A DNA stretch of 64,000 nt from Micavibrio sp. UBA2137 (GTDB taxonomy: Bacteria; Pseudomonadota; Alphaproteobacteria; Micavibrionales; Micavibrionaceae): contig DCXL01000004.1 in NCBI GenBank assembly GCA_002328415.1, positions 32,311 to 96,310 on the forward strand, given 5' to 3'. A program made the position numbers and the translations under genes. Shown here in pieces: positions 28,961 through 47,675 of this stretch (the stretch's first letter is position 1; each line of letters starts with the position of its first letter). The notes beneath the pieces were generated by a model. It searched no databases and had not been told where the DNA came from. It was given only the letters and a program-made list of their open reading frames with translations.

Positions 28961-29079
28961 TTTTTCCAAAATCAAAAGATCTGTCTTTCTTAATTGTAGA
29001 TATTGAGAAATCTGCAACTTTATGTTAGTTTCAATTAGTTAAAGGCGAAGGTCTTCCCTCCTAATTGAAGCTGATTTAC

Positions 29080-31145: not shown

Positions 31146-33251
31146 ATGCAGGATTTTGATCCAAAAGAACAGAAACGCAAGATAGAAGCGGATGCCAATC
31201 GCAAAGTGAATGATGCGCATGCTGATGATATTGTGCAGCCAGACGCACGCCTTGAGGACGATGCTGACGATATAGATTTTGATTTTGTTGATATGACCGT
31301 TGATGAAGAAGAGCTGAAACGTGAGATGGCGCAAAATCAACGCGCGCAAAATATGCATGATGCACAACACTCTTCAGCGCAGCGCTCTATAGAAGAGCGA
31401 AACGATGATGGCCCTTTGGAAATGGATATGGAGTATGTTGCTGATGATGCGGTGACACCCCCACAGGCCGATAATTCTTCGTCAGAGACACAGGTGCCTG
31501 TAACACAAACAACGCAGGTGCAAATGTCGCAAGGAACGGATGTTGCTACTTCAGGCGCTGATGGTGATCTAGTGGATGGCCAGAAAATGCGCCTTGGTGA
31601 ACGCCTCATCAAAATGGGGCTTATTACAAATGAGCAACTGAATGTTGCACTACAAGAGAAAAAGCTGAGCGGTAAAATGCTTGGCGAGGCTATTGTTGAG
31701 CTGGGCTTTATTGACGAAGAGCAGTTAACAATTGCATTGGCTGAATCAGCGGGTTTTGAAGTGTTTGATCCGAAATCAACCATCGTTGATGGGGAGGCGC
31801 TTCGTCTTTTGTCAAAACAAGATGCGCAACGCATGCGCGTGTTGCCACTTTTTATGCATGACCAAAGTGTTTATGTCGCTTTGATTGACCCGTACGATAT
31901 CGTGGCGATGGACGCCTTGCGCCGAAAGATGCCACGCGGTTTTTCCGTCAAACCTTTAATGACAACGCCCTCTGTCCTTAATGAGGCAATTGATGCGGCT
32001 TATGGTTACGCGAGTGCGATTGAGGATATTCTTAAAGAGCTTGAAACGCTTGATACAGAAGCAATTAACAAAATCGATGAACATGAAAACTACACGCACC
32101 CGATTGTGCGTCTTGTAAACGCGATGCTGTTTGAGGCGGTAAAATCAGGTGTGTCTGACTTGCACTTTGAGCCAGAAGAAAATTTCGTAAGGTTGCGTTA
32201 TCGTTTAGACGGTGTTCTCTTCACTGCGCAAATTATTCATAAGAAATATTGGAGCGGGATTTCACAGCGTATTAAAATTATGTCTGATTTAAATATCGCT
32301 GATAAATTAAGCCCGCAAGATGGTCGTTTTAACCTAAACATTGGCGGTCGAGATGCTGATTTTCGTGTCTCGTCCTTGCCAACGGTACATGGTGAAAACA
32401 TTGTCTTGCGTGTGCTTGATAAAAAGGCATCTATTTTGCCGCTTGATGCCCTTGGTTTTTCTGATGAAAATATGGCGTTAATTGAAAAGTCTCAAACGCG
32501 GCCCGAGGGGATTATTATTGTAACGGGACCAACGGGATCTGGTAAATCAACCTCGCTTTACTCCATGTTGAATAAAATCAATGATGTTGAGCGTAATATC
32601 CAGACGCTCGAAGACCCGGTTGAATATTCCCTTCCCATGATCAGGCAAACAAATGTACGCGAGGGCGTGTTGGATTTTGCAGATGGTATCCGTGCAATGT
32701 TGCGTCAGGACCCTGATATTATCTTTATTGGGGAGATTCGTGACGCGACAACAGCTGAAATGGCGCTGAAAGCGGCCATGACAGGGCATCAGGTTTACAC
32801 AACACTTCACACAAATGATTCCTTTGGGGCTATTCCACGTTTGCTGGATTTGGGATTGAAGCCAAATATGCTTGCAGGATCAATTATTTCCATTTTTGCG
32901 CAGCGTTTGGGTCGTCGTTTGTGTCAAGATTGTCGTGTCGCTTACACAGCTAGCCCAGAAGAGTGTGAATTGCTGAAGATTGATCCTAGTAATGCGCCTG
33001 AAATTTATAAGGCGAGCCCGGATGGGTGCACAAGCTGTTCTGGTATGGGGTATAAAGGGCGTACAGGTATTATCGAGATCCTCATGTTTGATGAAGGTAT
33101 GAATGATGCGCTTGCGCGCGGTGAGTCCAAGGCTGAGTTGAAGGCCTTGGCTAAGGAAAAAGGGTTCAAGAGCTTGGCAGATGATGCCATTCTGAAAATA
33201 TTGGATGGTGTAACAAGTATTGACGCTGTTACCAAGGTTGTTAGTCTATAG
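31146..33251 (+). CDS. pilB: Type IV pilus assembly (extension) ATPase, PilB/MshE family, with an N-terminal acidic extension
   Basis: 701 aa. T2SSE_N-like region, Walker A GPTGSGKST, Asp/His boxes, Walker B IIFIGEIRD, tetracysteine CQDC...CTSC. The first ~145 aa are acidic with no similarity I recognise. Confidence 0.9.
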   Translation: MQDFDPKEQKRKIEADANRKVNDAHADDIVQPDARLEDDADDIDFDFVDMTVDEEELKREMAQNQRAQNMHDAQHSSAQRSIEERNDDGPLEMDMEYVADDAVTPPQADNSSSETQVPVTQTTQVQMSQGTDVATSGADGDLVDGQKMRLGERLIKMGLITNEQLNVALQEKKLSGKMLGEAIVELGFIDEEQLTIALAESAGFEVFDPKSTIVDGEALRLLSKQDAQRMRVLPLFMHDQSVYVALIDPYDIVAMDALRRKMPRGFSVKPLMTTPSVLNEAIDAAYGYASAIEDILKELETLDTEAINKIDEHENYTHPIVRLVNAMLFEAVKSGVSDLHFEPEENFVRLRYRLDGVLFTAQIIHKKYWSGISQRIKIMSDLNIADKLSPQDGRFNLNIGGRDADFRVSSLPTVHGENIVLRVLDKKASILPLDALGFSDENMALIEKSQTRPEGIIIVTGPTGSGKSTSLYSMLNKINDVERNIQTLEDPVEYSLPMIRQTNVREGVLDFADGIRAMLRQDPDIIFIGEIRDATTAEMALKAAMTGHQVYTTLHTNDSFGAIPRLLDLGLKPNMLAGSIISIFAQRLGRRLCQDCRVAYTASPEECELLKIDPSNAPEIYKASPDGCTSCSGMGYKGRTGIIEILMFDEGMNDALARGESKAELKALAKEKGFKSLADDAILKILDGVTSIDAVTKVVSL

Positions 33252-33261
33252 AATCATGTGA

Positions 33262-34488
33262 TTGAGGAGAAACCACATCGCACAGTATCGTTATAAAGCA
33301 TTGAATAAGAAAAACCGCGTTGTAAAAGGCGTGGTTGGCGCAGTGAATGAGGCTGATCTCTACACGCAACTGCAGTCGGCAGGGCTTGAGCTTGTCCAAT
33401 GTTCTGAAATTAAAAAAAGTGGTGGTATTACCATCATGCGTGCGCCCAGTGTTAAGACACGTGATTTGCTAACCCTATTTATTAATTTAGAGCAAATGCA
33501 AGGGGCTGGTGTTCCTTTGCTTGATGCGCTTTCAGATATTCGTGATGCCACAGATAATGACCGTTTGCGTGATATTTTGTCCGAAACATATAGAAGTGTC
33601 TCCGAGGGTGCGTCCATGTCAGAAGGTTTTGCGGCGCAACCAAAAGTTTTTTCCAATATCGTTGTCTCTCTTATTAAAGCGGGTGAGGAAACTGGGGATT
33701 TGACCTTCTCTTACCGCGAGATTTTGAAATATCTTAAATGGCAGGATGCACTTCAAAGTAAAATGAAGAAGGCAACCCGTTACCCCATAATTTTGTTGGC
33801 TGTCGTTGTTCTTACAGTCGTCATCATGCTTGGTGTGGTTGTGCCTCAAATTATTGGCTTCATTTCAAATTTGGGGCAGGAGCTACCCTTTTATACAAAA
33901 GCGCTGATGGCAACATCTGAATTTTTTCAAAATTACGGTGTATATGTCGGGATTGCTCCCTTTGCCCTGTTTGCTCTTTATAAAATATTGCGTGGTGTAT
34001 CACGTGAGTTTGCTTATCGCGCCGACAGGGTGTTCTTGTCGCTTCCTATCATGGGTCCGCTTATTCGAAAAATTACAATTGCGCGTTACGCGCAAACATT
34101 TGCGGCGCTCTATGCCAGCGGAATCAGTGTTTTGGGTTGCTTGAAGTCCGGCCGTAATACTGTAGGAAATCTGGCGCTTTATGAGGCGTTTGAAAATGTT
34201 GAAGAGCAGGTTAAAACAGGAAGTTCTTTATCCGAAGCTTTTAATTTTACAGGTGAATTTCCGTCCATGGTCGTGCGCATGGTGCGTATTGGTGAGGAAT
34301 CAGGTAATTTGACGCCAGTGCTTGCGCAGGTTTCTGAGTTTTACTCTAAGGATGTTGAGGAATCGGTTGATGGCATGATCGCTATGATTGAGCCTATGTT
34401 AACTGCCTTCTTGGGTGGAATGATCCTTTGGATTGCGGCCTCAGTGTTTGGTCCTATTTATTCCAGCTTTGGGGAAATGGACTTCTAA
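33262..34488 (+). CDS. pilC: Type IV pilus platform protein, PilC/GspF family
   Basis: 408 aa. Two GspF repeats, three TM segments, family-typical N-terminus (YRYKALNKKNRVVKG). TTG start, 10 nt after pilB. Confidence 0.9.
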   Translation: MRRNHIAQYRYKALNKKNRVVKGVVGAVNEADLYTQLQSAGLELVQCSEIKKSGGITIMRAPSVKTRDLLTLFINLEQMQGAGVPLLDALSDIRDATDNDRLRDILSETYRSVSEGASMSEGFAAQPKVFSNIVVSLIKAGEETGDLTFSYREILKYLKWQDALQSKMKKATRYPIILLAVVVLTVVIMLGVVVPQIIGFISNLGQELPFYTKALMATSEFFQNYGVYVGIAPFALFALYKILRGVSREFAYRADRVFLSLPIMGPLIRKITIARYAQTFAALYASGISVLGCLKSGRNTVGNLALYEAFENVEEQVKTGSSLSEAFNFTGEFPSMVVRMVRIGEESGNLTPVLAQVSEFYSKDVEESVDGMIAMIEPMLTAFLGGMILWIAASVFGPIYSSFGEMDF

Positions 34489-34491
34489 AAT

Positions 34492-36192
34492 ATGAGCATT
34501 TTTTCACTTCCAAAAACGATTTTAAATGTAACGGACGAGGCCGTCTTCGTCTACAAAGTCTCTGGCAAAAATGTGGATTTACTGGGTGCTTATGCATGGC
34601 AGGATGAGGACTTTGAAGCAAGTTTGTTTTCAGCCATCGTAAATGACGCAAATATGGCGCCAGTTATCCTTCTTAACGATACGGTTGACCAACACTATCG
34701 TAAGGAGCGTGTTCCAAGTGTTGGTGTGTTTGAATCGGGTACAGTTGTAAAACGCAAGCTAGCCATTGCCTTCCCGAAATATCCTTTTAGGGCTTATAAA
34801 AAACTCTCTGAAGTTACACCAAGCAAGAAAACAGCTAGCGGCGACCGCACCGTAAAGACAGCGACTTATCTTTTTGCTGCCTGCCCCGAGACACAGAATA
34901 TTCAAAAGGTTATGAATGTTCTTAAAGATACAGATGTTTCGATTGCTGGTTTTGGTCTTCTTCCAACAGAATCCGTTAACTTTGTCGAGGCACTTTCACG
35001 AAAAATATTTGGTGGCGGTGAAGGCGATAAGAAGTCCACCCTTTCTTTCTTGTCTAAGAAAAAGGCGCCTCCTCCCAAAAGTAATGTTTGGACAATTTTT
35101 ATAGGCCAAAACCGCTCTGGCGGGTTGCGTCAAATTGTGACTAAGGGCGGTGAGCTTGCATTAACGCGTATCACGCCTATCGTTGAGACAAACGAGGATA
35201 TCGAGTTATGGACAGGTGATATTTTTAGAGAATATCAAGCGACGATGACGTATCTGTCGCGCTTTGGTTATACATCTAATGACACGCTCAATATCATTGC
35301 TGTTTCTTCTGAACATTGTAAACAAAGCCTAGAGAAGGTGCTGACGCCAGAAAATGGTGCTTTTCGGGCGCTCACATTATCGGAAATGTCAAAGTTTATG
35401 GGGTATAATCCAGATTTGGAAACTCCACAAAATGTAGCTGATGATGCACATGTTTTATGGGCGGCTAATCAAACCCGTCTTTCTATGCCTCTTAGCGCGC
35501 CCCAACTTGATGCAGTGGCCAATCCGCGCCGTTATGCGACATTTGCGAGTATTGCTCTTATCTTTTTGTTGGGTGCTTCCGTATATTATGCTTCAAACGC
35601 ATTTATCAATCTTTACAAGTTGAACCAAAATATTTCTCAGGCTGAAAAAGAGCTTATTCAAGTCACGAATATTTACGAAGACGAAGTGACGCGCAAAGAA
35701 GATATGGGCGTAAGCATTCAGCTCGTGCAGGCGAGCTTTCAAATAAATGAAGAGTTACAAAAAGAAAAAATAGAACTTTATGATGTTTTGAGCGCTATAA
35801 GCGAAGGTTTGAATGATACTTTTAGTTTAAAGACTATAGATTATGAGGTTAACGAGGTTGAGGTAGTATCAGATGAAACACTTGGTTTTGTGCCGCCTGG
35901 AACAACAAGACTAGAAAAAAAGATGGTTCTTACAATGGAATTTCCTGGTGACTTCGATATTGCGGAAGGTAATGCCATTGTAAAAAGCTTTAGTGATCGC
36001 CTTGGTTATTTGCTTCCTGAGAGTAGCGTATCTGTTACGCAAGTGCTGAAAGACGTTTCATATCGCGGTGCAATTACGAGCGAAAGCGGCGTAAATACAT
36101 CGCCGCAAAATACAACGCCTTTAGAAGGGAAAGTTCAGATCCTTATTGATGATAAGATTATAGAGTCAAATAGTGCGGGGGTTCAGGGATGA
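34492..36192 (+). CDS. Pilus alignment protein, fused PilM-like/PilN-like (MshI-like architecture)
   Basis: 566 aa. Cytoplasmic N-domain of ~350 aa, one TM (YATFASIALIFLLGASVYYA), then a coiled coil plus a small periplasmic domain. The call rests on position and topology, not on strong motifs. Confidence 0.45.
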   Translation: MSIFSLPKTILNVTDEAVFVYKVSGKNVDLLGAYAWQDEDFEASLFSAIVNDANMAPVILLNDTVDQHYRKERVPSVGVFESGTVVKRKLAIAFPKYPFRAYKKLSEVTPSKKTASGDRTVKTATYLFAACPETQNIQKVMNVLKDTDVSIAGFGLLPTESVNFVEALSRKIFGGGEGDKKSTLSFLSKKKAPPPKSNVWTIFIGQNRSGGLRQIVTKGGELALTRITPIVETNEDIELWTGDIFREYQATMTYLSRFGYTSNDTLNIIAVSSEHCKQSLEKVLTPENGAFRALTLSEMSKFMGYNPDLETPQNVADDAHVLWAANQTRLSMPLSAPQLDAVANPRRYATFASIALIFLLGASVYYASNAFINLYKLNQNISQAEKELIQVTNIYEDEVTRKEDMGVSIQLVQASFQINEELQKEKIELYDVLSAISEGLNDTFSLKTIDYEVNEVEVVSDETLGFVPPGTTRLEKKMVLTMEFPGDFDIAEGNAIVKSFSDRLGYLLPESSVSVTQVLKDVSYRGAITSESGVNTSPQNTTPLEGKVQILIDDKIIESNSAGVQG

Positions 36193-36818
36193 TTAAGATT
36201 ATTGGACGCGAACGCATAATTTTCTTGTTGTCACTTCTTGGGCTTATCGCATTGATTTCGGGTGTGGCCTATTTTGTTATAGCACCCAAAATGGTTGCTG
36301 CAGAGCGAACGTTGGCAACAAAGAAAATTCAGGTCTCTGCAAAAAAGAACGATACTATGATGTTGCGAGATGAGTTCAGGACATTCCAAGAACGCGCTGA
36401 AAAATTCAAAGAGTTAGAGGTTTCAGGCCTTTTTGAAACGCAGAACAGACTTGAGGCCATCGATAAGGTGGAAGGATTTCGCGAAGAGATTGGCTTGTTA
36501 AAAGCGAGTATTAAAGTTGATGCGGGCGAAATTGTTGAAGATCAAAGAATGGACCGACTTGATAATGTTTATTTGGAAAGCCCTGTTTCTTTTACGCTTG
36601 AGGCGCTTGATGATATCGAGGTGTATACTTTCTTAAAGCTTGTGGAGGACCGCTTTCCTGGACGGTTGGTTGTTCAAAACCTCAAAATTGAGAAGGTTGC
36701 TGATATTACGACTGAAACATTGGCGAGTATTGTAAATGGTATTCCGACACCGATGGTTAAAGCAACAGCAGATTATAACTGGGTTACTCTGCCAGCAGAA
36801 AATGAATTGGAGCAATAA
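36189..36818 (+). CDS. PilO/MshJ-like bitopic pilus alignment protein
   Basis: 209 aa. N-terminal TM (IIFLLSLLGLIALISGVAYFVIA), coiled coil, small C-domain. ATGA overlap with the upstream gene. Confidence 0.4.
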   Translation: MIKIIGRERIIFLLSLLGLIALISGVAYFVIAPKMVAAERTLATKKIQVSAKKNDTMMLRDEFRTFQERAEKFKELEVSGLFETQNRLEAIDKVEGFREEIGLLKASIKVDAGEIVEDQRMDRLDNVYLESPVSFTLEALDDIEVYTFLKLVEDRFPGRLVVQNLKIEKVADITTETLASIVNGIPTPMVKATADYNWVTLPAENELEQ

Positions 36819-36819
36819 G

Positions 36820-37587
36820 ATGGCATACTCCAAAATCGTGATTTCAATTTCTGCATGTATTCTTTTTCTAGGAAGCACTTTCCATGCTTATGCTCAAAAT
36901 GCGCCTGATCCCGAAGGGGTTCCTATTGTGGATGTATTAGAGACTTTTGCCGATATTCAGGAGCCGCAGGGTGTTGAAAACGAAAATGCAAACACAGAAA
37001 CTGATTCAGTAACCGTGGAGGAAAACGCACAAGAAGGTAGTCTTGCTGTCGGTGTATCTGTTCCCGATTATAACGTTGATGAAATTGTACCCACCGAAAT
37101 GATTGTAATGCGCCTCGTTGAAGATGAAGTGCGGGAATATTACAAGGAAGATATTGTTGAAGCACCTGACTTTCCATCATTGATGTTTTTGCCAGAAAAC
37201 TATGCTCTATTGCGTGCTGCAATTTCACGTTTCCCACGAAAGAAAACGGCAGAAGAAATAGCTGATGAGGGCCCACAGTTGCCTGATGAGCAAACTGATG
37301 ACCCGACAGCCACTGGTGACGACGGTATTAATGTTGAAGTTATTGAGTACGAGCGCAATGTCTCTTTAGGTGGCATATTATTTTACAACGAGAGTAACTG
37401 GATTATCTGGTTGAACGAAAAGCGCGTTACGCCAAAGGCGTTGCCAGAGGAAATAACAGATATCAGTGTTGAAAAAGGCGCTGTCAAATTGAAGTGGTTA
37501 GATAAGAAAACAAACACAGTTTATCCGATAAGGCTTAAGCCAAATCAAACGTTTAATCTGGATGCGCGCGTCTTTTTGCCGGGGTAG
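36820..37587 (+). CDS. Exported PilP/MshK-like protein
   Basis: Signal peptide MAYSKIVISISACILFLGSTFHAYA from the ATG at 36820. Acidic linker, then a C-terminal beta-rich segment (VSLGGILFYNESNWIIWLNEKRV...ISVEKGAVKLKW). Confidence 0.35.
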   Translation: MAYSKIVISISACILFLGSTFHAYAQNAPDPEGVPIVDVLETFADIQEPQGVENENANTETDSVTVEENAQEGSLAVGVSVPDYNVDEIVPTEMIVMRLVEDEVREYYKEDIVEAPDFPSLMFLPENYALLRAAISRFPRKKTAEEIADEGPQLPDEQTDDPTATGDDGINVEVIEYERNVSLGGILFYNESNWIIWLNEKRVTPKALPEEITDISVEKGAVKLKWLDKKTNTVYPIRLKPNQTFNLDARVFLPG

Positions 37588-37592
37588 ATTCT

Positions 37593-38342
37593 ATGAGCGC
37601 AGTCAAAAAAACCCTTCCAGCAGAGCAAGTTAGTCCTCTCTCATTTGAAAATATAAGTGTTGGCTATGGGGCGTTTCGGGTTGCTTCTGATGTAAATATC
37701 ACCTTGAAATCAGGCCATATCCACGGACTTATCGGTTTAAACGGTGTTGGAAAAACGACGTTGATTAAAACGCTTCTGGGGCTACGCGATCCACAAGAGG
37801 GGCATATAAGCATTTTTGGCGAAACGTGCGGGACGTTAAAAGCAAAGAAAAAAATTTCCTATTTGCCAGAGCGTTTTGATCCGCCTTGGTTTTTGACGGG
37901 GCTAGAATTTGTTCGCTTTTCAGCAAAGCTTTATAACGCAACAATTTCGGATAAAGATATTTTTGAGATGGCCGAAAAGCTGTCTCTTGATACACATTTT
38001 TTAAGTCAAAAAGCGCAAAGCTATTCCAAGGGTATGCGGCAAAAGTTGGGGTTGATAGCAACTGTGTTGATGCCAGCTAAGCTTCTTATTTTGGATGAGC
38101 CCATGTCAGGTCTTGACCCGCTTGCACGTGTACAGGTGAAGGATGTGTTGGAGGCCTGCCGTGATGCAGGAAAGACAATATTTCTTTCAAGTCATATTTT
38201 GGCTGACCTTGATGAGATGTGTGAAGACATATCAATTCTGCATGGGGGCGCGATTGTTTATTCTGGTTCTCCAGAAGCACTTCGCAAGAAAACAAAAGAA
38301 AAGTCTCTGGAAAGAGCATTTCTGAAGTCGATTGCATCATAG
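37593..38342 (+). CDS. ABC transporter ATP-binding protein embedded in the pilus cluster
   Basis: 249 aa. Walker A GLNGVGKTT, signature YSKGMRQKLGL, Walker B LLILDEPMSGLD, H-loop SSH. Confidence 0.9.
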   Translation: MSAVKKTLPAEQVSPLSFENISVGYGAFRVASDVNITLKSGHIHGLIGLNGVGKTTLIKTLLGLRDPQEGHISIFGETCGTLKAKKKISYLPERFDPPWFLTGLEFVRFSAKLYNATISDKDIFEMAEKLSLDTHFLSQKAQSYSKGMRQKLGLIATVLMPAKLLILDEPMSGLDPLARVQVKDVLEACRDAGKTIFLSSHILADLDEMCEDISILHGGAIVYSGSPEALRKKTKEKSLERAFLKSIAS

Positions 38343-38367: not shown

Positions 38368-39945
38368 ATGAGCGATAACCAAGATAATACGCAAAAACCA
38401 ATCATAGAGGGTGGGGTTCCCGAAAATGACTCGCCTGAGATGTCTTATGATAGTGATATGGAATTAAATGCCATTGATGCAAACGACATAGAGGACGTCT
38501 ATGAAGATACACAAGATTTCGATGGGCAAGATATTGGTGACTACGACAGGCCCCCACCGCAATATGGCTTTGATGAACATCGCAGTAATTCAAAACTCAT
38601 ACTGATTGTAGTTCTGGTGCTGGCAGTTCTCGGGTTTGGTGGCTTTTATTTCATGACAACGAGCTCTGATACAGAAATCATGGCGAGTATGCCAGTTCAA
38701 GGGCCAACACCTGATGCGCAAGCCTCTGTTGAGGAACAAGAGCAAGCCCCTCAAATTATCGAGGCGCAAGCTTTGCCAACAGATGATATGATTATCCCTG
38801 CGAGTGAAACGACAGAGGCCGATGAGGCGCTGGCTGTTGTAACTGAGGGGCAGGATATTGTTCTGGTAGAACAGGCAGATGTAAATGATGAAGGTGCATC
38901 AATTATTGACAGCATGCCAGATGAAGTTGGCCTTCCAGATATTGCGTCTGATGCACCTGAAAATGATGAAGTTCTTGAAGATGATATGACATTGGAAGCA
39001 CTTGTTGAAAGTTATGACGAGGCTGAAATTGATGCTGAAGCACCTGAAGTGGTTGCTAACACAGTCCTAGATGATAATGATGTTCCATCCGAGACAAGTC
39101 TTGCTGAGCCTGTTACTGAAACGGAAGATGAAACAACTGAAGCAGTTGTCGAAAGTGCAGAAACGCCAGTACAAGATGACCAGGTGGCTGAAACGATTGC
39201 CACTCGTGAGCCAGAAAACCTTGCGAGCGAGACGTATTTCGATGCGGACACGGATGTAACATATAACAGTGCCTCTGGCGTTGGTGATAAGGGTGACTAT
39301 GAGATTAAAGACCCCAAACGTGACTATTACGCACAATTCATCACGGTTAGTCAGCCAGCAAGTAATGTGATTACAACGGATAATCATTCTGATGATCTGG
39401 CGCGTGCGCAACGCGCTTTGGCGCTTAATAGGCCAGATGCAGCCATAGAGTTTTATGATCGTCTGTATGCGAAAAACAAACGTGACATGCGTATATTGAT
39501 GGGACGCGCCAATACGCTTCAAGTCTTGGGACGAAATGTTGAGGCGATTGAGGCCTACGAGGAAATTCTTGATCTTGACCCAAATAATACTGGAGCAGTT
39601 GTAAATCTGATGAGCCTTGTGCAGTCACAAAACCCACAAGGGGCGGTTCAAAGGTTGATGGCACTGCAGGAGCGCTATCCAACTAATGCAGGGGTGGCGG
39701 CGCAGCTGGGTCTAGCTTTTGCACAGATTAACCGTTACGATGATGCACTCAAATATTTAAGTAGGGCGCAATCGCTTTCTCCTGATAACGCATTGTTTTC
39801 GTTTAATAAAGCGGTCATCTATGACCGAATGGGTAACACGTCACAGGCCATTTTGATGTATGAGAAGGCTCTTGAACAAGATGCGGTCTATGGGGGTAAT
39901 ATTTCACGTGAGGCAATTTACGACAGGTTAGCAATCTTGCGCTAA
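38368..39945 (+). CDS. Bitopic membrane protein with a long acidic linker and C-terminal TPR repeats (MshN/FimV-like role possible)
   Basis: 525 aa. TM LILIVVLVLAVLGFGGFYF, ~200 aa D/E/T/V-rich low complexity, then several TPR-like repeats (AIEFYDRLY..., AIEAYEEILDLDPNN, ALKYLSRAQSLSPDN, AILMYEKALEQD). Confidence 0.7.
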   Translation: MSDNQDNTQKPIIEGGVPENDSPEMSYDSDMELNAIDANDIEDVYEDTQDFDGQDIGDYDRPPPQYGFDEHRSNSKLILIVVLVLAVLGFGGFYFMTTSSDTEIMASMPVQGPTPDAQASVEEQEQAPQIIEAQALPTDDMIIPASETTEADEALAVVTEGQDIVLVEQADVNDEGASIIDSMPDEVGLPDIASDAPENDEVLEDDMTLEALVESYDEAEIDAEAPEVVANTVLDDNDVPSETSLAEPVTETEDETTEAVVESAETPVQDDQVAETIATREPENLASETYFDADTDVTYNSASGVGDKGDYEIKDPKRDYYAQFITVSQPASNVITTDNHSDDLARAQRALALNRPDAAIEFYDRLYAKNKRDMRILMGRANTLQVLGRNVEAIEAYEEILDLDPNNTGAVVNLMSLVQSQNPQGAVQRLMALQERYPTNAGVAAQLGLAFAQINRYDDALKYLSRAQSLSPDNALFSFNKAVIYDRMGNTSQAILMYEKALEQDAVYGGNISREAIYDRLAILR

Positions 39946-39957
39946 AGAAAGTTTCCC

Positions 39958-40740
39958 ATGAGTACATATATGGGCGTTTCTCTCATATTTTTCTTTTACG
40001 GGCTATTAGGTCTATTTACTGGCGCTGTACTTGGCAGTTTTTCTGCGGCCTTTGTTTACAGGCAAGCGCATCAGATATCCATTTTTAAAGATAAAAATAA
40101 AAAATTTTCACGCTCGAAGTGTGCCTCTTGCAAACATGTTCTGGCATTAAAGGACCTTGTCCCAGTCTTGTCATGGATAAACTTGCGCGGAAAATGTCGC
40201 TATTGTCAGGCACGGATTTCCAGTCTTTATCCTATAATTGAAGCTGTAAGTATGTTTTATGCTGTTTTTATCCTCTTTGCTTGGGATATTAGCGTTTTAT
40301 CACTCATCTATTTGGTTGCATTGCCTCTTTGTTGGGTGCTTATCATCAATGGGGCTCGTAATGCGACATACTCATTGGGTGTTATTGCCTGTTTTGTAAT
40401 TTTAGCTTTGGTTTACGCAGTTTTGAAGCCACTCTTGATAACAACTGTGCTGTGGGCCTTTGGATTATCGCTTTGTGTAGCGTTATTGCTTAAGGTATTT
40501 ACGCGGCACTGGGCCTTGAAAGAAAGTGCCTTTTTTGCGGCATTGATTGTAATGACTGGCGCAACGCTTTTGCCGCTTGCACTTCTTGTCTTGGCGCTGT
40601 TTATGCTGGGAGTGCGTAAGGTCAGGCCAGATGTTTTGCTGGAAGGGTGTTTTATTTCAGCAACCGCCTCCAGTTTTATTTTCATAACTTTGGTGCAAGG
40701 CGCTATGAATATTTATGACTTATTATCAAGTATTTATTAA
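39958..40740 (+). CDS. Prepilin peptidase homolog (A24 family) lacking recognisable catalytic aspartates
   Basis: 260 aa. The N-terminal domain aligns with PilD (GAVLGSFSAAFVYR, CASCKHVL...DLVPVLSW...GKCRYCQARISSLYPIIE). The polytopic C-domain has no (I/L)D...LPD motif and no GxGD(F/V)KL motif. Confidence 0.65.
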   Translation: MSTYMGVSLIFFFYGLLGLFTGAVLGSFSAAFVYRQAHQISIFKDKNKKFSRSKCASCKHVLALKDLVPVLSWINLRGKCRYCQARISSLYPIIEAVSMFYAVFILFAWDISVLSLIYLVALPLCWVLIINGARNATYSLGVIACFVILALVYAVLKPLLITTVLWAFGLSLCVALLLKVFTRHWALKESAFFAALIVMTGATLLPLALLVLALFMLGVRKVRPDVLLEGCFISATASSFIFITLVQGAMNIYDLLSSIY

Positions 40741-40821: not shown

Positions 40822-41979
40822 GTGGATATTACTCAATTACTTGCATTTGTGATGCAAAATGATGCGTCTGATTTGCATCTTAGCCCCGAAAACCCTCCGA
40901 TTGTGCGTGTTCATGGGAAATTGAAGCGCGTGAAATCCGATATATTGGAATCAGATCAGATTAGAAAAATGCTCTATTCCATTATGACGGAGGATCAGCG
41001 TGCGGCCTATGAAAACGATATGGAGCTTGATTTTGCGATTTCCTTTGGTGAAAAGGCGCGTTTCCGTGTGAATGCCTTTACTACCCGTAAAGGGGTGACG
41101 GCCGTTTTACGTACAATTCCCTCCGAAATTCCAACAATGGATGAAATTGATCTGCCAATGGTTATTCGCCGTTTTGCAGATTTGGAGCAGGGAATTGTTC
41201 TTGTAACAGGCGCAACAGGATCGGGTAAATCGACAACGCTTGCGTCCTTGATTAACCATATCAATAAAACACAGCAGAAACATATCCTAACTATTGAAGA
41301 CCCAGTCGAATTTTTCCATCACTCTGACAAAAGTTTGATTAACCACCGTGAATTGAATGTTGATACTAAATCCTATGCTAAAGCTTTGAAAAGCGCTCTT
41401 CGTGAAGACCCTGATGTTATTCTTATCGGGGAGATGCGGGACCACGAAACAATTTCACTTGCGCTGACTGCCGCAGAAACGGGGCACTTGGTGTTTGGAA
41501 CATTGCACGCTAATTCGGCCTCGAAAACAATTGACCGTATTATTGACGTGTTCCCAGGGAGTGAGAAGGACATGGTTCGCGCCATGCTTGCAGGATCACT
41601 TCAGGGCGTTGTCGCGCAAAAGCTTCTACGCCGTAAAGAGGGTGGGCGTGTTGGTGTGCATGAGGTGCTGGTTGGAACTGGTGCGGTGCGTAACCTTATT
41701 CGCGAAAACCAACTGCCACAGCTTTATTCTATGATGCAAACAGGCTCGCGTTATGGGATGACGACAATGGAAGATTCGGCACAAAGCCTATATGAAGATG
41801 GGATTATTTCGAAGGAAGAAGCTAATCGTGTATTGCGAAAAGCCGCTGATGAAGATGATGCAGGAATCACGCGTGAAGAGGGTGAGGTTGCAGCTTCTCT
41901 TGGTGGTCGCGCACTTGAAGATACGTCTCAGAAGTTCGGCGGTAAAGAACAAGATAGTGAGGATGATTACAGCTTTTGA
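40822..41979 (+). CDS. pilT: Twitching-motility (retraction) ATPase PilT, with a ~40-aa acidic C-terminal tail
   Basis: 385 aa. ASDLHL, Walker A GATGSGKST, TIEDPVEF, GEMRD, AAETGHLVFGTLH. GTG start with an AAAGGAGGG RBS. Confidence 0.9.
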   Translation: MDITQLLAFVMQNDASDLHLSPENPPIVRVHGKLKRVKSDILESDQIRKMLYSIMTEDQRAAYENDMELDFAISFGEKARFRVNAFTTRKGVTAVLRTIPSEIPTMDEIDLPMVIRRFADLEQGIVLVTGATGSGKSTTLASLINHINKTQQKHILTIEDPVEFFHHSDKSLINHRELNVDTKSYAKALKSALREDPDVILIGEMRDHETISLALTAAETGHLVFGTLHANSASKTIDRIIDVFPGSEKDMVRAMLAGSLQGVVAQKLLRRKEGGRVGVHEVLVGTGAVRNLIRENQLPQLYSMMQTGSRYGMTTMEDSAQSLYEDGIISKEEANRVLRKAADEDDAGITREEGEVAASLGGRALEDTSQKFGGKEQDSEDDYSF

Positions 41980-43106
41980 TACAGGACATCCTCACATATT
42001 TTGATGCAATGATTGACACAGAAGCCTCGGATCTTTATCTCACGGCGGGGTCGCGTCCGACCATGCGTGTGGATGATGCACTTCAAACGATAGGCGAAAC
42101 AAGCCTTGCTGAAAAAGATATTCAAAATATTATTTCATCTCTTCTGTCTCTTCGTCAGGTGCGAGAGTTTGAGATGAATAAGGAGTTGAATACAGCCGTC
42201 GATGCAGGAGAGAAGGGGCGCTATCGTATTAATGTGATGCAACAGCGTCAAAAGCCAGCACTGGTTATTCGCCGTATTGTAACAAAAATTCCTGATTTTG
42301 AAGCGTTGCGTTTACCAGCCATTTCGGAAAAGCTAGCCTTGATGAAGCAAGGTTTAGTTTTGTTCACAGGGATGACAGGTTCTGGTAAATCAACATCTCT
42401 TGCCTCTATTCTGGATTATAGAAACACACATCGTGCAGGGCATATCATTACTATCGAAGATCCAATTGAGTTCTTTCATGAACATAAGCAATCAGTCATT
42501 ACGCAGCGCGAAGTAGGCGTGGATACCGAAAGTTATGAGGCAGCACTTAAGAATGTACTGAGGCAACGCCCTGATGTCATTATGATTGGTGAAATTCGCT
42601 CACGTGAAGTTATGGAGCAAGCTTTGACAGCTGCGGAGACTGGGCACTTATGCTTTGCAACATTGCACACGAATAACACTTATCAGGCCATTGACCGCAT
42701 CGTAAATTTCTTTCCAGAAGAACTACAAAGTCAGATTTGCCTGAACCTGTCTCTTAATTTACGCGCCATCGTATCGCAGCGTCTTATTCCATCCCTTCAA
42801 GGTGGTTTAGCGCTTGCCTCGGAGGTTCTTCTGAATGAGGGGTATATCAAAACACTTATTCATGAAGGCAAGATCAAAGAAATCCTGGGTGTCATGTCGA
42901 AGAACAGTGTGCAAGGCATGCAAACTTTTGACGGTTCGCTGCTCGAGCTTTACCGAGAAGGCGTTATTTCTGAAGAAAGCGCGCTAACTTTTGCCGATAT
43001 ACCAGGCGACCTGAAGGTTAAACTTAAAGAATCAGGCATGAAAAGTACGGATGAAGGCTCTGGCTTGGGTGCAATTGATACAACATTGCTTTCTATTTCT
43101 GAATAA
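41976..43106 (+). CDS. pilU: PilT-family ATPase paralog (PilU-like)
   Basis: 376 aa. ASDLYL, GMTGSGKST, TIEDPIEF, GEIRS, AAETGHLCFATLH. TTG start overlapping the pilT stop (TTGA). Confidence 0.85.
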   Translation: MIQDILTYFDAMIDTEASDLYLTAGSRPTMRVDDALQTIGETSLAEKDIQNIISSLLSLRQVREFEMNKELNTAVDAGEKGRYRINVMQQRQKPALVIRRIVTKIPDFEALRLPAISEKLALMKQGLVLFTGMTGSGKSTSLASILDYRNTHRAGHIITIEDPIEFFHEHKQSVITQREVGVDTESYEAALKNVLRQRPDVIMIGEIRSREVMEQALTAAETGHLCFATLHTNNTYQAIDRIVNFFPEELQSQICLNLSLNLRAIVSQRLIPSLQGGLALASEVLLNEGYIKTLIHEGKIKEILGVMSKNSVQGMQTFDGSLLELYREGVISEESALTFADIPGDLKVKLKESGMKSTDEGSGLGAIDTTLLSISE

Positions 43107-43203: not shown

Positions 43204-45180
43204 ATGAAAGGTCTTGCGTCCGCAATGTTGTTTTCTAAAGCTTTCAAAAAATCTGTTCCTTTGGCAGTCGCTGTTGCGTTGTTGAGCACATCGGCCTTTT
43301 CACTAACTGGCTGTGACTTGACGCAAAACCATCTGAAAATTGATCGTGAAAAAAACATGGACAGACAGGATTACCGTGATGCGCTTGCGTCACGTGATCC
43401 GAATTTAGAAGAGTTTGTCGAATTTGATGACTCCATTCCTGCGCTTCAGCCTTACGTTGAAGAAGTCAGCATGAACGCGCGTCCGATCCCGCTTGTCTCT
43501 GTTTCTGTTAATCAGACAATCCCTCTACGTGATGTCTTATTTGAGTTGGCTGATCAGGCAGGCTATGACCTTGAACTGGATCCACGCATTTCGGGGTCAA
43601 TTATTTTCTCTGCGCGCAACAAACCTTTTGATGTTGTGATTGACAGGATCTCTGATATAGCAGGTTTACGCTATAAATTTGATGATGACAGCCTGCGCGT
43701 TGAATTGGATACACCGTACAGCAAAAGTTATAAAATTGATTATCTAACTGTTATTCGTACAACTGCGAGCACAATGTCGAATAATATTTCTGTTGTAACG
43801 GGTGAGGGCGCCGACACTGGATCTGCCTTTAATATTACAAGTAACTCCGAAGCGGACTTCTGGGGCGAGCTTGAAACAAACCTGACACAGATATTGGAAT
43901 CAAATGCGAGCCGTGGTTTCTTAAGAACTGGATCCGACCCAATTATTGAGGTTGTGGAGAGTAATGCTCCCGGTGGCCCCGCAACAGTTGATATTCCAGT
44001 CGAGCAGTTGACGGATGCACAGGTTAATGACGAGCCGTCTATCGTAGAAGAAGGTACAGAGCCACAGCTTGATGAAAACGGTGTCCCACTTCCAACACCG
44101 GGTCAGGATACATCGACACCACCTGTTGTTCAGCCGAGAAACACAATTTTACAGGTTACGTCATCGCCCGCTGCGACACCAACTGGTGCAGATGGTGAAG
44201 CAAATGAGGTTAATTTCACACCCTCTTTTTCAATTAACAGACAGGCTGGCCTCGTATCTGTTTACGCTAATGAACGCATCCACAAGGAAGTCGCTGATTA
44301 TCTTGGTGAATTGAAGAAATCGCTCACTTCGCAAGTCCTTATTGAGGCGAAAGTTCTCGAAGTGTCTTTAAGTGATGAATTTTCGACTGGTATTGATTGG
44401 GCAAAATTAGGGGATTTCATTAGTCCTGAACTGTCTCTTGCGTTTGGTACAACAGGAGCGGGTTCTCGCCCCGCGCTAACACCTGTTGCAGGCAGTGATT
44501 TTGTTGCTGGTTATGTCGGTAGCGACTTAGGCGCGGTTGTTCAGGCCATCTCGCGTTTTGGAACGGTCTCAGCCTTGGCTAGTCCACGTATGACGGTACT
44601 TAATAATCAGGCTGCAGCCTTGAATGTGGCTCAAAATTCAGTTTATTTCGAAATTGAAATTGATGTGACGACTGAAGAGGGCGTTACACAGACAGATATT
44701 GATAGTGATATTCGTAACGTACCAGAAGGTGTTTTGATTAACGTGCTTCCAACAATTAATCCTGATACGGGCTCGATTACCATGCAGGTGCGCCCGACGG
44801 TCACGCGCATTGTTAACCGTGTCGAGGATCCCGCAGTTGCCTTTGTAGCGGCGCAGGCTGATATTGAGGGTATTTCATCACAGGTGCCTGAATTGAATGT
44901 GCAGGAAATTGACTCTATCCTTTCTATGCAATCAGGCGAGGTTGCTGTTCTTGGTGGTCTTATCCAGGACCGCGTTGAAAGTCAGCAAGAAAGCATTCCT
45001 GTATTAGGTGAGGTTCCTGTTATCGGTGCTGCTTTCCGCAATCAAGCAGATAATATTCAAAAAACAGAATTGGTTATTTTCTTGAAGGCAACAATAGTGG
45101 ATGCGCCAAGTACAGTAAGTCAAACTGATAAAGAGCTGTACAGAACGTTTTCACAAGACAGACGCCCCTTGAAATTCTAA
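43204..45180 (+). CDS. Lipoprotein secretin (PilQ/MshL-like)
   Basis: 658 aa. Lipobox SLTG-C, N-domains, and a C-terminal secretin domain (LASPRMTVLNNQAAALNV...IPVLGEVPVIGAAFRNQ...ELVIFLKATIV). Confidence 0.85.
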   Translation: MKGLASAMLFSKAFKKSVPLAVAVALLSTSAFSLTGCDLTQNHLKIDREKNMDRQDYRDALASRDPNLEEFVEFDDSIPALQPYVEEVSMNARPIPLVSVSVNQTIPLRDVLFELADQAGYDLELDPRISGSIIFSARNKPFDVVIDRISDIAGLRYKFDDDSLRVELDTPYSKSYKIDYLTVIRTTASTMSNNISVVTGEGADTGSAFNITSNSEADFWGELETNLTQILESNASRGFLRTGSDPIIEVVESNAPGGPATVDIPVEQLTDAQVNDEPSIVEEGTEPQLDENGVPLPTPGQDTSTPPVVQPRNTILQVTSSPAATPTGADGEANEVNFTPSFSINRQAGLVSVYANERIHKEVADYLGELKKSLTSQVLIEAKVLEVSLSDEFSTGIDWAKLGDFISPELSLAFGTTGAGSRPALTPVAGSDFVAGYVGSDLGAVVQAISRFGTVSALASPRMTVLNNQAAALNVAQNSVYFEIEIDVTTEEGVTQTDIDSDIRNVPEGVLINVLPTINPDTGSITMQVRPTVTRIVNRVEDPAVAFVAAQADIEGISSQVPELNVQEIDSILSMQSGEVAVLGGLIQDRVESQQESIPVLGEVPVIGAAFRNQADNIQKTELVIFLKATIVDAPSTVSQTDKELYRTFSQDRRPLKF

Positions 45181-46901: not shown

Positions 46902-47675
46902 ATGACGGAATTTATAAATATTGATCGCAATAAGGACGATGGTTTTACACTGGTTGAACTCGCGATTGTTATGATCATTATCGGTCTTTTGATCGGTGGT
47001 GTTCTTAAGGGACAAGAATTAATTGCCAATGCGGAGGTGACTGCATCCGTGTCTCAGGTAAAGGCGACGGAATCTGCGATGTCAACTTTCCAAGATGCTT
47101 ACGCGAATTTGCCAGGCGATATGACTAACCCTGCCGCGCGTATTCCAAACTGTACAGGCGAATGTGCGCGTGTTGGTAATGCAAACGGCTTGATTGAGCC
47201 ACTTCCAGGGGCTGCACAAACTCTTGCTATGGAGGCGCAAACATTCTGGTCACAGCTTGCTGCTGCTGACATTTTGGGTGGTGTGATAGCAGATTCTCCT
47301 GCGGTTGTTCCTACACCGGGTCAAACACACCCTGAATTTCCATCAGGTGGAGCTCTACGTGTTGGATATCACGTTGGAGGTGTCATTACTGGACAAACAG
47401 CTGCTGCAGGGCAAAGTGCAGGCCACTATGTGAATTCAACTTTAGCATTAGCCAATATTGCCACGAACACACAAGCAGACTCAGCTCTTTCGCCGGGTCA
47501 GGCTTCACGCATTGACTCAAAAATTGACGATGGTCAGCCCAACACAGGAAGTGTTCTTGGTAATGGACAGGCTGCTGCTGGTACAACATCTTGTGCACTT
47601 GGTACAGGTGTGACAGATGTTTATAATACAGCGCAGACAAGTCTTAACTGTAATACGTACATTCGTATAAGATAA
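46902..47675 (+). CDS. pilA: Type IV pilin (major pilin candidate)
   Basis: Class III signal MTEFINIDRNKDDG|FTLVELAIVMIIIGLLIGG with Gly-1, Phe+1, Glu+5. AAGGGGA RBS at the ATG at 46902. 243-aa mature protein with Cys pairs CTGEC and C...C near the C-terminus. Confidence 0.85.
   Translation: MTEFINIDRNKDDGFTLVELAIVMIIIGLLIGGVLKGQELIANAEVTASVSQVKATESAMSTFQDAYANLPGDMTNPAARIPNCTGECARVGNANGLIEPLPGAAQTLAMEAQTFWSQLAAADILGGVIADSPAVVPTPGQTHPEFPSGGALRVGYHVGGVITGQTAAAGQSAGHYVNSTLALANIATNTQADSALSPGQASRIDSKIDDGQPNTGSVLGNGQAAAGTTSCALGTGVTDVYNTAQTSLNCNTYIRIR

What the first reader, a model, noticed from the sequence alone, without database searches (positions are those of the whole stretch)
39958..40740. 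Prepilin peptidase homolog that appears to have lost both catalytic aspartates
The N-terminal ~100 aa align convincingly with PilD: the first TM GAVLGSFSAAFVYR and the four-Cys cytoplasmic domain CASC...CRYC, which in PilD is linked to N-methyltransferase activity. In the membrane domain, I expect the first Asp motif (LID..xxLLPD in P. aeruginosa PilD) where the sequence reads VLIINGARNATYS. I expect GxGD(F/V)KLL where it reads SAFFAALIVMTGATLL. The cluster's pilin still has a canonical G|FTLVE cleavage site. So either another peptidase elsewhere processes it, or this protein is a non-catalytic scaffold or methyltransferase-only paralog.
Basis: partly seen in the sequence, partly recalled or inferred. 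Interest (0 to 1): 0.6.

Follow-up and report, generated by a model that had tools for sequence, protein, structure and literature searches.

The report
Peptidase-dead PilD keeping its methylase half
The pilus cluster of this small marine bacterium encodes a relative of the pilin-processing enzyme PilD that keeps the zinc-finger half linked to pilin methylation, has lost both protease aspartates, and is still under selection, so cutting is probably done by a separate protease gene elsewhere in the genome.

Summary
ORF 39958-40740 (260 aa) sits between a TPR gene and pilT in an intact type IV pilus cluster. It scores 82.6 bits on the A24 N-terminal domain (PF06750) and keeps the CxxC-x21-CxxC zinc motif and Gly78-Lys79. 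It gives no hit to Peptidase_A24 (PF01478). Profile alignments still show its C-terminal half to be a diverged A24 domain (HHalign 91.8%). Gly132, with Asn131 before it, lies on the first catalytic Asp column and Glu189 on the second. The GxGD glycines and PFGP are gone.

It is not a pseudogene. The whole genus keeps a full-length open frame, C-terminal dN/dS is 0.2-0.3, and neutral drift would rarely leave the frame open.

The genome has two intact short A24 peptidases elsewhere. One is an orphan (GFGDVKLL motif) and one is a Tad-locus CpaA. It also has four canonical class III prepilins.

Across the order the PilD slot holds an intact PilD, a dead full-length form, or a 100-207 aa N-domain-only gene. 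Every family genome with a dead or cut form has the orphan peptidase.

Best reading (about 55%): a methylase-only PilD, with cleavage done by the orphan A24. This is a new variant of a known kind and is moderately interesting.

The parts
39958..40740 (+). PilD-derived gene, 260 aa. The AlphaFold2 model has eight long helices plus two short helices in the Zn-finger loop. The peptidase is dead and the methylase half is intact.
   Evidence: ORF. PF06750 hit only. AF2 model pLDDT 94.8; the eight long helices are H2-37, 90-109, 113-133, 140-156, 161-182, 187-200, 205-222 and 228-259. Close homologs P0001 (94% identity) and P0002 (56%) also carry PF06750 only.
40018..40278 (+). N-terminal A24_N_bact / IPR010627 'methylase' domain, residues 21-107: the end of TM1, the cytoplasmic Zn-finger loop and TM2.
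   Evidence: PF06750 at 82.6 bits against a cut-off of 23. 25 columns are invariant across degenerate and canonical family members. N-domain identity is 47.6% among degenerate forms and 44.5% among canonical forms.
40120..40206 (+). CxxC-x21-CxxC zinc motif (C55, C58, C80, C83), with G78-K79 directly before the third Cys.
   Evidence: Positions. All are invariant. The same spacing and the Gly plus basic residue are the methylation determinants reported for P. aeruginosa PilD (PMC3584216).
40279..40737 (+). Degenerate A24 peptidase domain, residues 108-260. It is still homologous to canonical C-terminal domains but lacks the active site.
   Evidence: HHalign of the degenerate profile against the canonical C-terminal profile: probability 91.8%, E 9.5e-8, 144 columns. 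No PF01478 hit. dN/dS is 0.22 against L051 and 0.31 against L049.
40348..40353 (+). N131-G132, at the column of the first catalytic Asp.
   Evidence: The HMM, the 94-sequence alignment and HHalign place the Asp column on G132; the 16-sequence MAFFT alignment places it on N131. N131 is conserved in 5 of 7 genus members.
40522..40524 (+). E189, at the column of the GxGD catalytic Asp. Both Gly residues of that motif are lost (ALKE).
   Evidence: Glu in 5 of 7 genus members, Thr in L005 and L008.
46902..47675 (+). Major pilin gene with a class III signal, MTEFINIDRNKDDG|FTLVELAIV. This is a substrate that needs cleavage and can be N-methylated at Phe1.
   Evidence: Translation. PF07963 (N_methyl) hit.
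31146..34488 (+). PilB-type extension ATPase (with an MshEN domain) and PilC platform protein.
   Evidence: PF00437 at 4e-116, PF05157 and PF00482.
38368..39945 (+). TPR protein directly upstream. It is the conserved left neighbour of the PilD slot.
   Evidence: TPR families. TPR-PilD-PilT synteny holds in all 11 relatives' loci.
40822..43106 (+). PilT and PilU retraction ATPases directly downstream.
   Evidence: PF00437. PilT is 66-82% identical across relatives, where the PilD-like gene is 30-45% identical.
43204..45180 (+). Secretin (PilQ-like).
   Evidence: PF00263.

Best explanation
The gene encodes the ortholog of the bifunctional prepilin peptidase/N-methyltransferase PilD. The peptidase half has been inactivated and the methylase half is maintained.

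Shown here:
- The C-terminal domain is still an A24-type helical bundle, but it has Gly132 (Asn131 before it) and Glu189 on the two catalytic Asp columns. It has lost the GxGD glycines and the PFGP motif.
- The N-terminal domain keeps the four zinc-binding cysteines in the PilD spacing and the Gly-Lys before the third Cys.
- The frame is kept open and under purifying selection throughout the genus.
- The genome holds canonical prepilins and two intact stand-alone A24 peptidases.

Inferred mechanism:
1. A stand-alone peptidase cleaves the leader after Gly-1 of the pilins. The most likely candidate is the orphan 168-176 aa enzyme on contig C3, which carries YDLKHMRLPN and GFGDVKLL and is conserved across the order. 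The Tad-locus CpaA is less likely.
2. The PilD-derived protein then binds the new N-terminus at the cytoplasmic face of the inner membrane.
3. Its Zn-dependent N-terminal module transfers a methyl group from S-adenosyl-methionine to Phe1.

The dead C-terminal bundle probably survives as a membrane anchor or substrate-docking surface. This would explain the polar Asn/Glu pair kept at or next to the former active site in most of the genus.

In evolutionary terms this is paralogous displacement, not gene fission. The orphan peptidase predates the loss and made PilD's own protease dispensable.
For: Loss of the active site:
- No PF01478 hit.
- The catalytic columns read G132 and E189 in the HMM, the 94-sequence alignment and HHalign; MAFFT places N131 or G132 on the first.
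- L006 and L007 have no Asp at all in the C-terminal domain.
- D79N abolishes catalysis in the homologous FlaK/ArlK (PMC10117864).

The domain is still homologous: HHalign 91.8%, E 9.5e-8. The AF2 model has eight long helices at pLDDT 94.8.

Methylase determinants are kept:
- PF06750 at 82.6 bits.
- C55, C58, C80, C83, G78 and K79 are invariant or nearly so.
- Zinc and these residues are needed for methylation but not for cleavage in PilD (PMC3584216).
- IPR010627 is regarded as the methylase domain (PMC10191384, PMC4471445).

Selection:
- C-terminal dN/dS is 0.22-0.31.
- Frames of 259-269 aa stay open in all genus members at about 20% C-terminal identity.
- In a neutral simulation the frame stays open in only 2.5% of runs at the divergence seen against P0002 and 0.4% at that seen against L006/L007.
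- N-domain identity is the same among dead forms (47.6%) as among intact forms (44.5%).

Alternative peptidases:
- Two PF01478 genes lie elsewhere in the genome, with both Asp motifs.
- The orphan type forms its own clade across the order.
- It is present in all 10 family genomes whose PilD is dead or truncated. It is absent only from two genomes with an intact PilD.

Substrates: four class III signal proteins are encoded, and T4aP and Tad are the only type IV filament systems.

The N-domain works as an autonomous module elsewhere. Clean N-domain-only genes of 100-207 aa sit in the same TPR-X-PilT slot in other genera with no C-terminal remnant. The 158-aa form is conserved at 58-96% identity.
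Against: - No assay or read data were available. Methyltransferase activity of IPR010627 has itself never been formally shown for the isolated domain (PMC4471445).
- The SAM-binding site of PilD is unknown, so it could lie partly in the lost active-site region.
- The whole gene, N-domain included, evolves much faster than its neighbours: 56% aa identity where PilT is 96%.
- Which peptidase cleaves the pilins is inferred only from presence. The orphan A24 also exists in most genomes with an intact PilD, so it has some role of its own. It lies next to pyrB and nagZ, not next to pilus genes.
- The AF2 confidence leans on an alignment dominated by canonical PilDs, and no solved structure could be matched.
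Confidence: 0.55

Rival explanations
1. It is a non-catalytic pseudo-enzyme or scaffold. The protein neither cleaves nor methylates. It binds prepilins or mature pilins, or other machine parts, through the old substrate groove and the zinc finger. It would act as a chaperone, gatekeeper or docking factor that hands pilins to the stand-alone peptidase or to the PilC platform.
For: - The C-terminal fold is retained under purifying selection without catalytic residues.
- The polar N131/E189 pair is kept in 5 of 7 genus members.
- Degenerate C-terminal domains remain 27% identical to each other, against 33% among canonical ones. That suggests a new constraint rather than free drift.
- The zinc finger may be structural or a substrate-binding element (discussion in PMC3584216).
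Against: - Other genera discard the C-terminal domain entirely and keep only TM1, the Zn finger and TM2. The conserved function therefore sits in the N-domain, whose only known link is to methylation.
- The residues specifically tied to methylation (G78, K79 and the four Cys) are invariant.
Confidence: 0.25
2. It is still an active prepilin peptidase that uses non-canonical catalytic residues, for example Glu189 together with another acidic or polar residue.
For: - Glu189 lies exactly on the second catalytic column and is conserved in 5 of 7 genus members.
- The gene sits in the pilus operon, where the peptidase normally is.
Against: - No acidic residue is present at or near the first catalytic column in any genus member.
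- L005 and L008 have Thr at the second column, and L006 and L007 have no Asp in the whole domain.
- The GxGD glycines and PFGP are lost.
- A D-to-N change at the equivalent position inactivates FlaK (PMC10117864). The two Asp residues are described as universally conserved and critical (PMC10191384).
- No PF01478 signal at all.
Confidence: 0.05
3. It is a decaying pseudogene, a relic of PilD on its way out, made redundant by the other A24 peptidases.
For: - It evolves very fast relative to its neighbours: 56% against 96-97% aa identity versus L049.
- Related genomes show truncations, and one (G014) has a damaged second CxxC.
Against: - Open frames of 259-269 aa are kept in every genus member despite about 80% C-terminal divergence.
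- dN/dS is 0.2-0.3.
- Neutral simulation gives 0.4-2.5% chance of an open frame per lineage, before counting indels.
- The N-domain is as conserved as in intact PilDs.
- Truncated forms are clean, compact genes whose length is conserved.
Confidence: 0.03
4. The retained N-domain has a function unrelated to pilins, such as zinc or redox sensing or regulation of the neighbouring PilT/PilU ATPases. Its link to methylation in PilD would not carry over.
For: - The catalytic role of IPR010627 is not formally proven (PMC4471445).
- Redox regulation was floated for the four-Cys motif (PMC3584216).
- The gene always abuts pilT.
Against: - No evidence for such a role in any system.
- The domain is found essentially only in prepilin peptidases.
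- The determinants conserved here are those mapped genetically to methylation.
Confidence: 0.1

Closest known systems
PilD / XcpA of Pseudomonas aeruginosa and its orthologs (GspO, PulO, ComC). These are bifunctional type IV prepilin peptidase / N-methyltransferases (MEROPS A24A; PF06750 + PF01478; IPR010627 + IPR000045).
   Same: - Same position in a T4aP cluster.
- An eight-long-helix model, matching the eight-TM layout reported for PilD.
- Same N-terminal domain, with CxxC-x21-CxxC and a Gly plus basic residue before Cys3.
- The C-terminal domain is detectably homologous (HHalign 91.8%).
- Sister genera carry canonical PilD in the identical TPR-PilD-PilT slot.
   Different: - Both catalytic Asp residues are absent (G132/N131 and E189).
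- The GxGD glycines and PFGP are lost, and there is no PF01478 hit.
- It therefore cannot be filed as a peptidase A24A member in the functional sense.
TadV / CpaA / FppA and other short A24 peptidases that lack the methylase domain.
   Same: They show that the two PilD modules can exist apart. This genome has two such peptidase-only enzymes: a CpaA next to cpaB, and an orphan next to pyrB.
   Different: They are the mirror image of this protein: peptidase without methylase. This protein is methylase without peptidase, an arrangement the reviews I read do not list (PMC10191384, PMC4471445).
Pseudo-proteases derived from intramembrane proteases, such as iRhoms and Derlins from rhomboids (comparison from general knowledge).
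   Same: A polytopic membrane protease fold kept under selection after the catalytic residues were lost.
   Different: A different fold and catalytic class. Here a second, probably still active, enzymatic module is attached.
N-domain-only PilD derivatives in the same order (L009, L011, L015, L145-L148; P0122-P0124) and degenerate forms in Micavibrio-like MAGs (L052, L055; P0003, P0006).
   Same: Same slot, same conserved Zn-finger module, and the same co-occurrence with the orphan A24 peptidase.
   Different: Those have deleted the C-terminal domain outright, leaving 100-207 aa. The window's genus keeps a full-length but dead domain.

Membership tests
Peptidase A24A (PilD-type prepilin peptidase; PF01478 / IPR000045) | Significant match to the Peptidase_A24 profile | tested here: not met
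   No PF01478 hit at E<=10. The own-genome six-frame search finds PF01478 only at two other loci.
Peptidase A24A (PilD-type prepilin peptidase; PF01478 / IPR000045) | First catalytic Asp (DxxxxxxP[DN] motif at the start of the peptidase domain) | tested here: not met
   The column is G132, preceded by N131, in the HMM, the 94-sequence alignment and HHalign. The 16-sequence MAFFT alignment puts N131 there. Canonical relatives have D.
Peptidase A24A (PilD-type prepilin peptidase; PF01478 / IPR000045) | Second catalytic Asp within GxGD | tested here: not met
   The motif reads ALKE: E189 is on the Asp column and both Gly residues are lost.
Peptidase A24A (PilD-type prepilin peptidase; PF01478 / IPR000045) | Homologous polytopic helical fold (eight TM in PilD) | tested here: met
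   HHalign 91.8%, E 9.5e-8 over 144 columns. The AF2 model has eight long helices, pLDDT 94.8. No solved structure was matched.
Peptidase A24A (PilD-type prepilin peptidase; PF01478 / IPR000045) | Leader-peptide cleavage activity | not testable with these tools
   Needs a cell-free or E. coli co-expression assay.
Prepilin peptidase N-terminal 'methylase' domain (PF06750 / IPR010627) | Profile match above the curated cut-off | tested here: met
   82.6 bits against 23, residues 21-107. It is the only PF06750 match in the genome.
Prepilin peptidase N-terminal 'methylase' domain (PF06750 / IPR010627) | Four Cys in CxxC-x21-CxxC (zinc site required for methylation) | tested here: met
   C55, C58, C80 and C83, invariant in all alignments. 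The requirement is from PMC3584216.
Prepilin peptidase N-terminal 'methylase' domain (PF06750 / IPR010627) | Gly and a basic residue adjacent to the third Cys | tested here: met
   G78 and K79 before C80. G78 is invariant and K79 is at least 90% conserved. Their role is as cited in PMC3584216.
Prepilin peptidase N-terminal 'methylase' domain (PF06750 / IPR010627) | SAM-dependent N-methylation of Phe1 of mature pilin | not testable with these tools
   Needs mass spectrometry of the pilin, or an in vitro assay with SAM and Zn.
Pseudogene | Disrupted frame or neutral evolution | tested here: not met
   Open frames in all seven genus-level sequences. dN/dS is 0.09-0.31. Neutral drift keeps the frame open in 0.4-2.5% of simulations.

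The most novel reading that the evidence does not exclude
Across a whole order of small-genome Alphaproteobacteria, pilin N-methylation has been naturally separated from leader cleavage. On this reading the PilD N-domain is an autonomous, zinc-dependent pilin N-methyltransferase. It occurs either as a minimal TM-Zn finger-TM protein of about 100 aa or, as here, carried on a dead protease scaffold. It is kept by selection after an unrelated stand-alone A24 peptidase took over cleavage. That would be the first genetic evidence that methylation itself matters for fitness. It would also offer a clean system for assigning the methylase activity to IPR010627.
Probability: 0.4. Interest if true: 0.72.

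Novelty: new variant of a known kind. Interest (0 to 1): 0.58.

Why it matters
PilD is the textbook bifunctional enzyme of type IV pili and type II secretion. Reviews describe prepilin peptidases as either bimodular or peptidase-only, with two "universally conserved" aspartates (PMC10191384).

Two points are still open after about 40 years:
- whether the N-terminal IPR010627 domain is really the methyltransferase ("remains to be formally demonstrated", PMC4471445);
- what pilin N-methylation is for ("enigmatic", "a mystery").

A lineage that keeps the N-domain under selection, while the protease half is dead or deleted and cleavage is done by another gene, gives a natural separation-of-function system. 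The methylase can be assayed without a protease background, and its retention argues that methylation has a selective value.

There is also a practical point for annotation. A gene called "prepilin peptidase" from its PF06750 hit is not a peptidase here. The true processing enzyme lies far from the pilus cluster.

Tried and rejected
- Foldseek of the AF2 model against the PDB gave no significant match: the best E was 0.66, on ABC transporters, and neither FlaK nor any PilD structure was recovered. Superposition on a solved A24 structure was therefore impossible. Model coordinates are not exposed to scripts, so the N131-E189 distance could not be measured.
- A sequence search of the PDB gave only chance zinc-finger hits.
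- NCBIfam gave nothing for this protein or for the two short peptidases.
- The first genome-contig scan, with the single protein, found nothing. The second, with an alignment, returned 80 diverse PilDs and served only as a background sample. The organism's name could not be obtained. It is inferred to be a marine alphaproteobacterium related to Micavibrio-like MAGs. The basis is TARA contigs and the orphan peptidases of such MAGs nesting inside the family.
- The LaPointe and Taylor 2000 paper is not held.
- A third PilT-like ATPase on contig C5 was checked as a possible third filament system. It is DotB of a Dot/Icm secretion system and was rejected.
- Gene fission as the origin of the orphan peptidase was rejected. 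It forms its own clade, separate from the PilD C-terminal domains, and coexists with intact PilD in most genomes.
- D110 (AWDIS), D225 and D254 were rejected as substitute catalytic residues because none is conserved in the genus.

Full report
**1. The observation**

The ORF at 39958..40740 (+) encodes 260 aa. Against Pfam it matches only the bacterial A24 N-terminal domain, PF06750: E 2.1e-23, 82.6 bits against a cut-off of 23, residues 21-107. There is no hit to Peptidase_A24 (PF01478) even at E<=10. NCBIfam gives nothing.

The protein carries C55, C58, C80 and C83 in CxxC-x21-CxxC spacing.

I built an HMM from 104 canonical PilD-type proteins that have both Pfam domains and ran it with all filters off. 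It aligns the window protein from residue 16 to 213. Almost all of the 125.8-bit score comes from the N-terminal half.

The catalytic columns read as follows:

| Column | Window residue | Local sequence |
|---|---|---|
| First catalytic Asp | G132 (N131 just before) | VLIINGARN |
| First catalytic Asp, MAFFT | N131 (16 sequences); G132 (11 sequences) | VLIINGARN |
| GxGD Asp | E189 | WALKESAFF |

The C-terminal PFGP motif is also gone.

The D of AWDIS lies 22 residues upstream of the first catalytic column and is not conserved in the genus.

**2. It is a diverged A24 domain, not unrelated sequence**

A profile of the seven degenerate C-terminal domains aligns to a profile of canonical C-terminal domains with 91.8% probability (E 9.5e-8, 144 columns), giving the same residue assignments.

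AlphaFold2, run on a 94-sequence alignment, gives a confident model with eight long helices (pLDDT 94.8, pTM 0.89). This matches the eight-TM topology described for PilD (PMC10191384). The alignment is dominated by canonical PilDs, so this is weak independent evidence. Foldseek found no solved structure to compare with.

**3. Context**

The gene lies in a co-directional type IV pilus cluster:

| Gene | Coordinates |
|---|---|
| PilB (with MshEN domain) | 31146-33251 |
| PilC | 33262-34488 |
| Three unassigned ORFs | 34492-37587 |
| ABC ATPase | 37593-38342 |
| TPR protein | 38368-39945 |
| This gene | 39958-40740 |
| PilT | 40822-41979 |
| PilU | 41976-43106 |
| Secretin | 43204-45180 |
| ABC-2-like permease | 45180-45941 |
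| Unknown | 45951-46676 |
| Pilin | 46902-47675 |

The pilin most likely starts at M38, giving MTEFINIDRNKDDG|FTLVELAIV.

Genome-wide (1.77 Mb, 5 contigs, 99.95% complete) I found three more proteins with canonical class III signals at C1:260.8-263 kb: G|FSFLE, G|VSLIE and G|FTLIE. One Tad system is also present. A third PilT-like ATPase turned out to be DotB of a Dot/Icm system. There are therefore at least four T4aP-type substrates that need cleavage.

**4. Other peptidases**

PF01478 hits two other loci in the genome. PF06750 hits only this gene.

- One is a 182-aa CpaA/TadV-type enzyme next to cpaB, with SDFKFLKIPN and GAGDSKM.
- The other is a 168-176 aa orphan between nagZ-like and pyrB genes, with YDLKHMRLPN and GFGDVKLL.

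In a tree of A24 domains from 41 loci, PilD C-terminal domains (98/97 support) and CpaA-like enzymes (99/94) form supported clades. The orphan type is a third group, separated from the other two by a branch with 94/99 support. The orphan type spans the whole order, often beside pyrB. It is therefore an old paralog, not a piece split off PilD.

**5. Distribution among relatives**

Of the 41 genomes searched (own plus 40 relatives in its genus, family and order), 36 have a homolog of this gene, always in the TPR-X-PilT slot where this could be checked. Three states occur.

- **(a) Intact PilD.** Both Asp motifs and PFGP are present, for example L010, L012, L013, L014 and many others whose PF01478 hit overlaps the homolog.
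- **(b) Full-length but dead.** This covers the window, the TARA homologs P0001 and P0002, and the four same-genus species in which a homolog was found (L005-L008). One same-genus assembly, G001, gave no match. These sequences form one clade in a PilT tree (95/95). Five have N and E at or next to the old catalytic columns. L005 and L008 have V or A, and T. L006 and L007 have no Asp in the whole domain.
- **(c) N-domain only.** These are compact genes of 158-207 aa (L009, L011, L015), or about 100-115 aa comprising TM1, the Zn finger and TM2 (G021, G025, G028, G034, G040). In the loci where pilT could be located downstream they end about 70-110 bp before it with no C-terminal remnant. The 158-aa form is conserved at 58-96% identity at constant length.

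All 10 family genomes in state b or c have the orphan A24. The only two family genomes that lack it, G019 and G024, have an intact PilD.

Among the 77 PF06750-bearing ORFs recovered from the 80 nearest GTDB species loci, 70 have Asp at both columns. A few full-length ones are dead. These include Micavibrio-like MAGs (L052, L055) that again carry the orphan-type peptidase. Those MAGs are probably relatives of this family rather than an independent case.

**6. Selection**

| Comparison | PilD-like | PilT | ABC ATPase | TPR |
|---|---|---|---|---|
| aa identity to L049 | 56% | 96% | 97% | 87% |

The gene evolves fast, but its C-terminal half has dN/dS of 0.22 against L051 and 0.31 against L049.

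Random drift of the C-terminal domain to the observed divergences leaves an open frame in 2.5% of simulations (48% identity) and 0.4% (21% identity), before counting indels. Yet every lineage keeps the frame.

| Pairs compared | N-domain identity | C-terminal identity |
|---|---|---|
| dead vs dead | 47.6% | 27.0% |
| intact vs intact | 44.5% | 33.2% |
| dead vs intact | 41.7% | 14.5% |

The N-domain is thus under unchanged constraint. The C-terminal domain has moved to a different but still constrained state. A pseudogene is excluded.

**7. Mechanism**

The following comes from the literature:
- PilD cleaves the leader and then methylates the new N-terminus with SAM.
- Zinc, the four cysteines and the Gly plus basic residue before Cys3 are needed for methylation, not for cleavage (PMC3584216).
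- IPR010627 is taken to be the methylase domain, though this is "not formally demonstrated" (PMC4471445, PMC10191384).
- The two Asp residues are essential, and D79N kills the homologous FlaK (PMC10117864).

Every methylation determinant is kept here and every protease determinant is lost. The best-supported reading is a methylase-only PilD that acts on pilins already cleaved by a stand-alone A24. The orphan is the more likely cleaver, because CpaA is dedicated to the Tad locus.

The dead C-terminal domain probably serves as an anchor or docking surface. Because other genera dispense with it, the core conserved function must sit in the N-domain. I put this at 0.55.

Rivals:

| Rival | Confidence |
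|---|---|
| Non-catalytic scaffold or chaperone | 0.25 |
| Pilin-unrelated role of the Zn module | 0.10 |
| Residual peptidase activity via Glu189 | 0.05 |
| Pseudogene | 0.03 |

**8. Novelty**

The reviews I read list bimodular and peptidase-only prepilin peptidases, but not methylase-only ones. My paper searches found no description of a catalytically dead PilD.

Earlier notes of this scan report similar cases in other phyla. I treat these as leads. They suggest the phenomenon recurs, and they lower the uniqueness of this instance.

What is particular here is the order-wide series from intact, to dead, to deleted, all in one conserved slot and together with an ancient orphan peptidase. I class it as a new variant of a known kind, of moderate interest. 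It gives a natural separation-of-function system for an old open question.

Noticed in passing
G000:C5:218000-222500 (outside the window; locus L138:9380-11933): Genes for DotB (PF00437), DotC (PF16932, 8.8e-78) and DotD (PF16816) lie together. This small-genome marine bacterium therefore carries a Dot/Icm-type IVB secretion system, which suggests a host- or prey-associated lifestyle.
   Followed up: partly
G000:C1:260700-264000 (outside the window; locus L139:2264-5440): Three consecutive large proteins (399, 424 and 338 aa) have canonical class III signals (G|FSFLE, G|VSLIE, G|FTLIE) and no Pfam hit. They lie next to an AT3-SGNH acyltransferase. They are candidate giant minor pilins or pilus-tip proteins, encoded about 180 kb from the pilus cluster.
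   Followed up: partly
G000:C3:36700-37300 (outside the window; locus L001:1369-1899): An orphan 168-176 aa A24 peptidase lies between nagZ-like and pyrB genes. It is conserved in this housekeeping context across the order and forms its own A24 clade, distinct from both the PilD C-terminal domains and CpaA. Its native substrate in genomes with an intact PilD is unknown.
   Followed up: partly
window 37593-38342 and 45180-45941: An ABC ATPase and an ABC-2-like permease are embedded in the pilus cluster, 7 kb apart. Both are conserved in the TARA homolog contig L051.
   Followed up: no
window 29065-30885: A 606-aa protein with an inverse-autotransporter beta domain (PF11924, 9.6e-15) lies just upstream of the pilus cluster.
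   Followed up: no
window 34492-37587: Three ORFs (566, 209 and 283 aa) sit where PilM/N/O/P would be, with no Pfam match at E<=1 apart from chance hits.
   Followed up: no
L144 (G014:C1:229282-229887): In one family member the PilD-derived gene (202 aa) also has a damaged second zinc pair (RCACGK in place of CxxC). This may be a later stage of decay.
   Followed up: no
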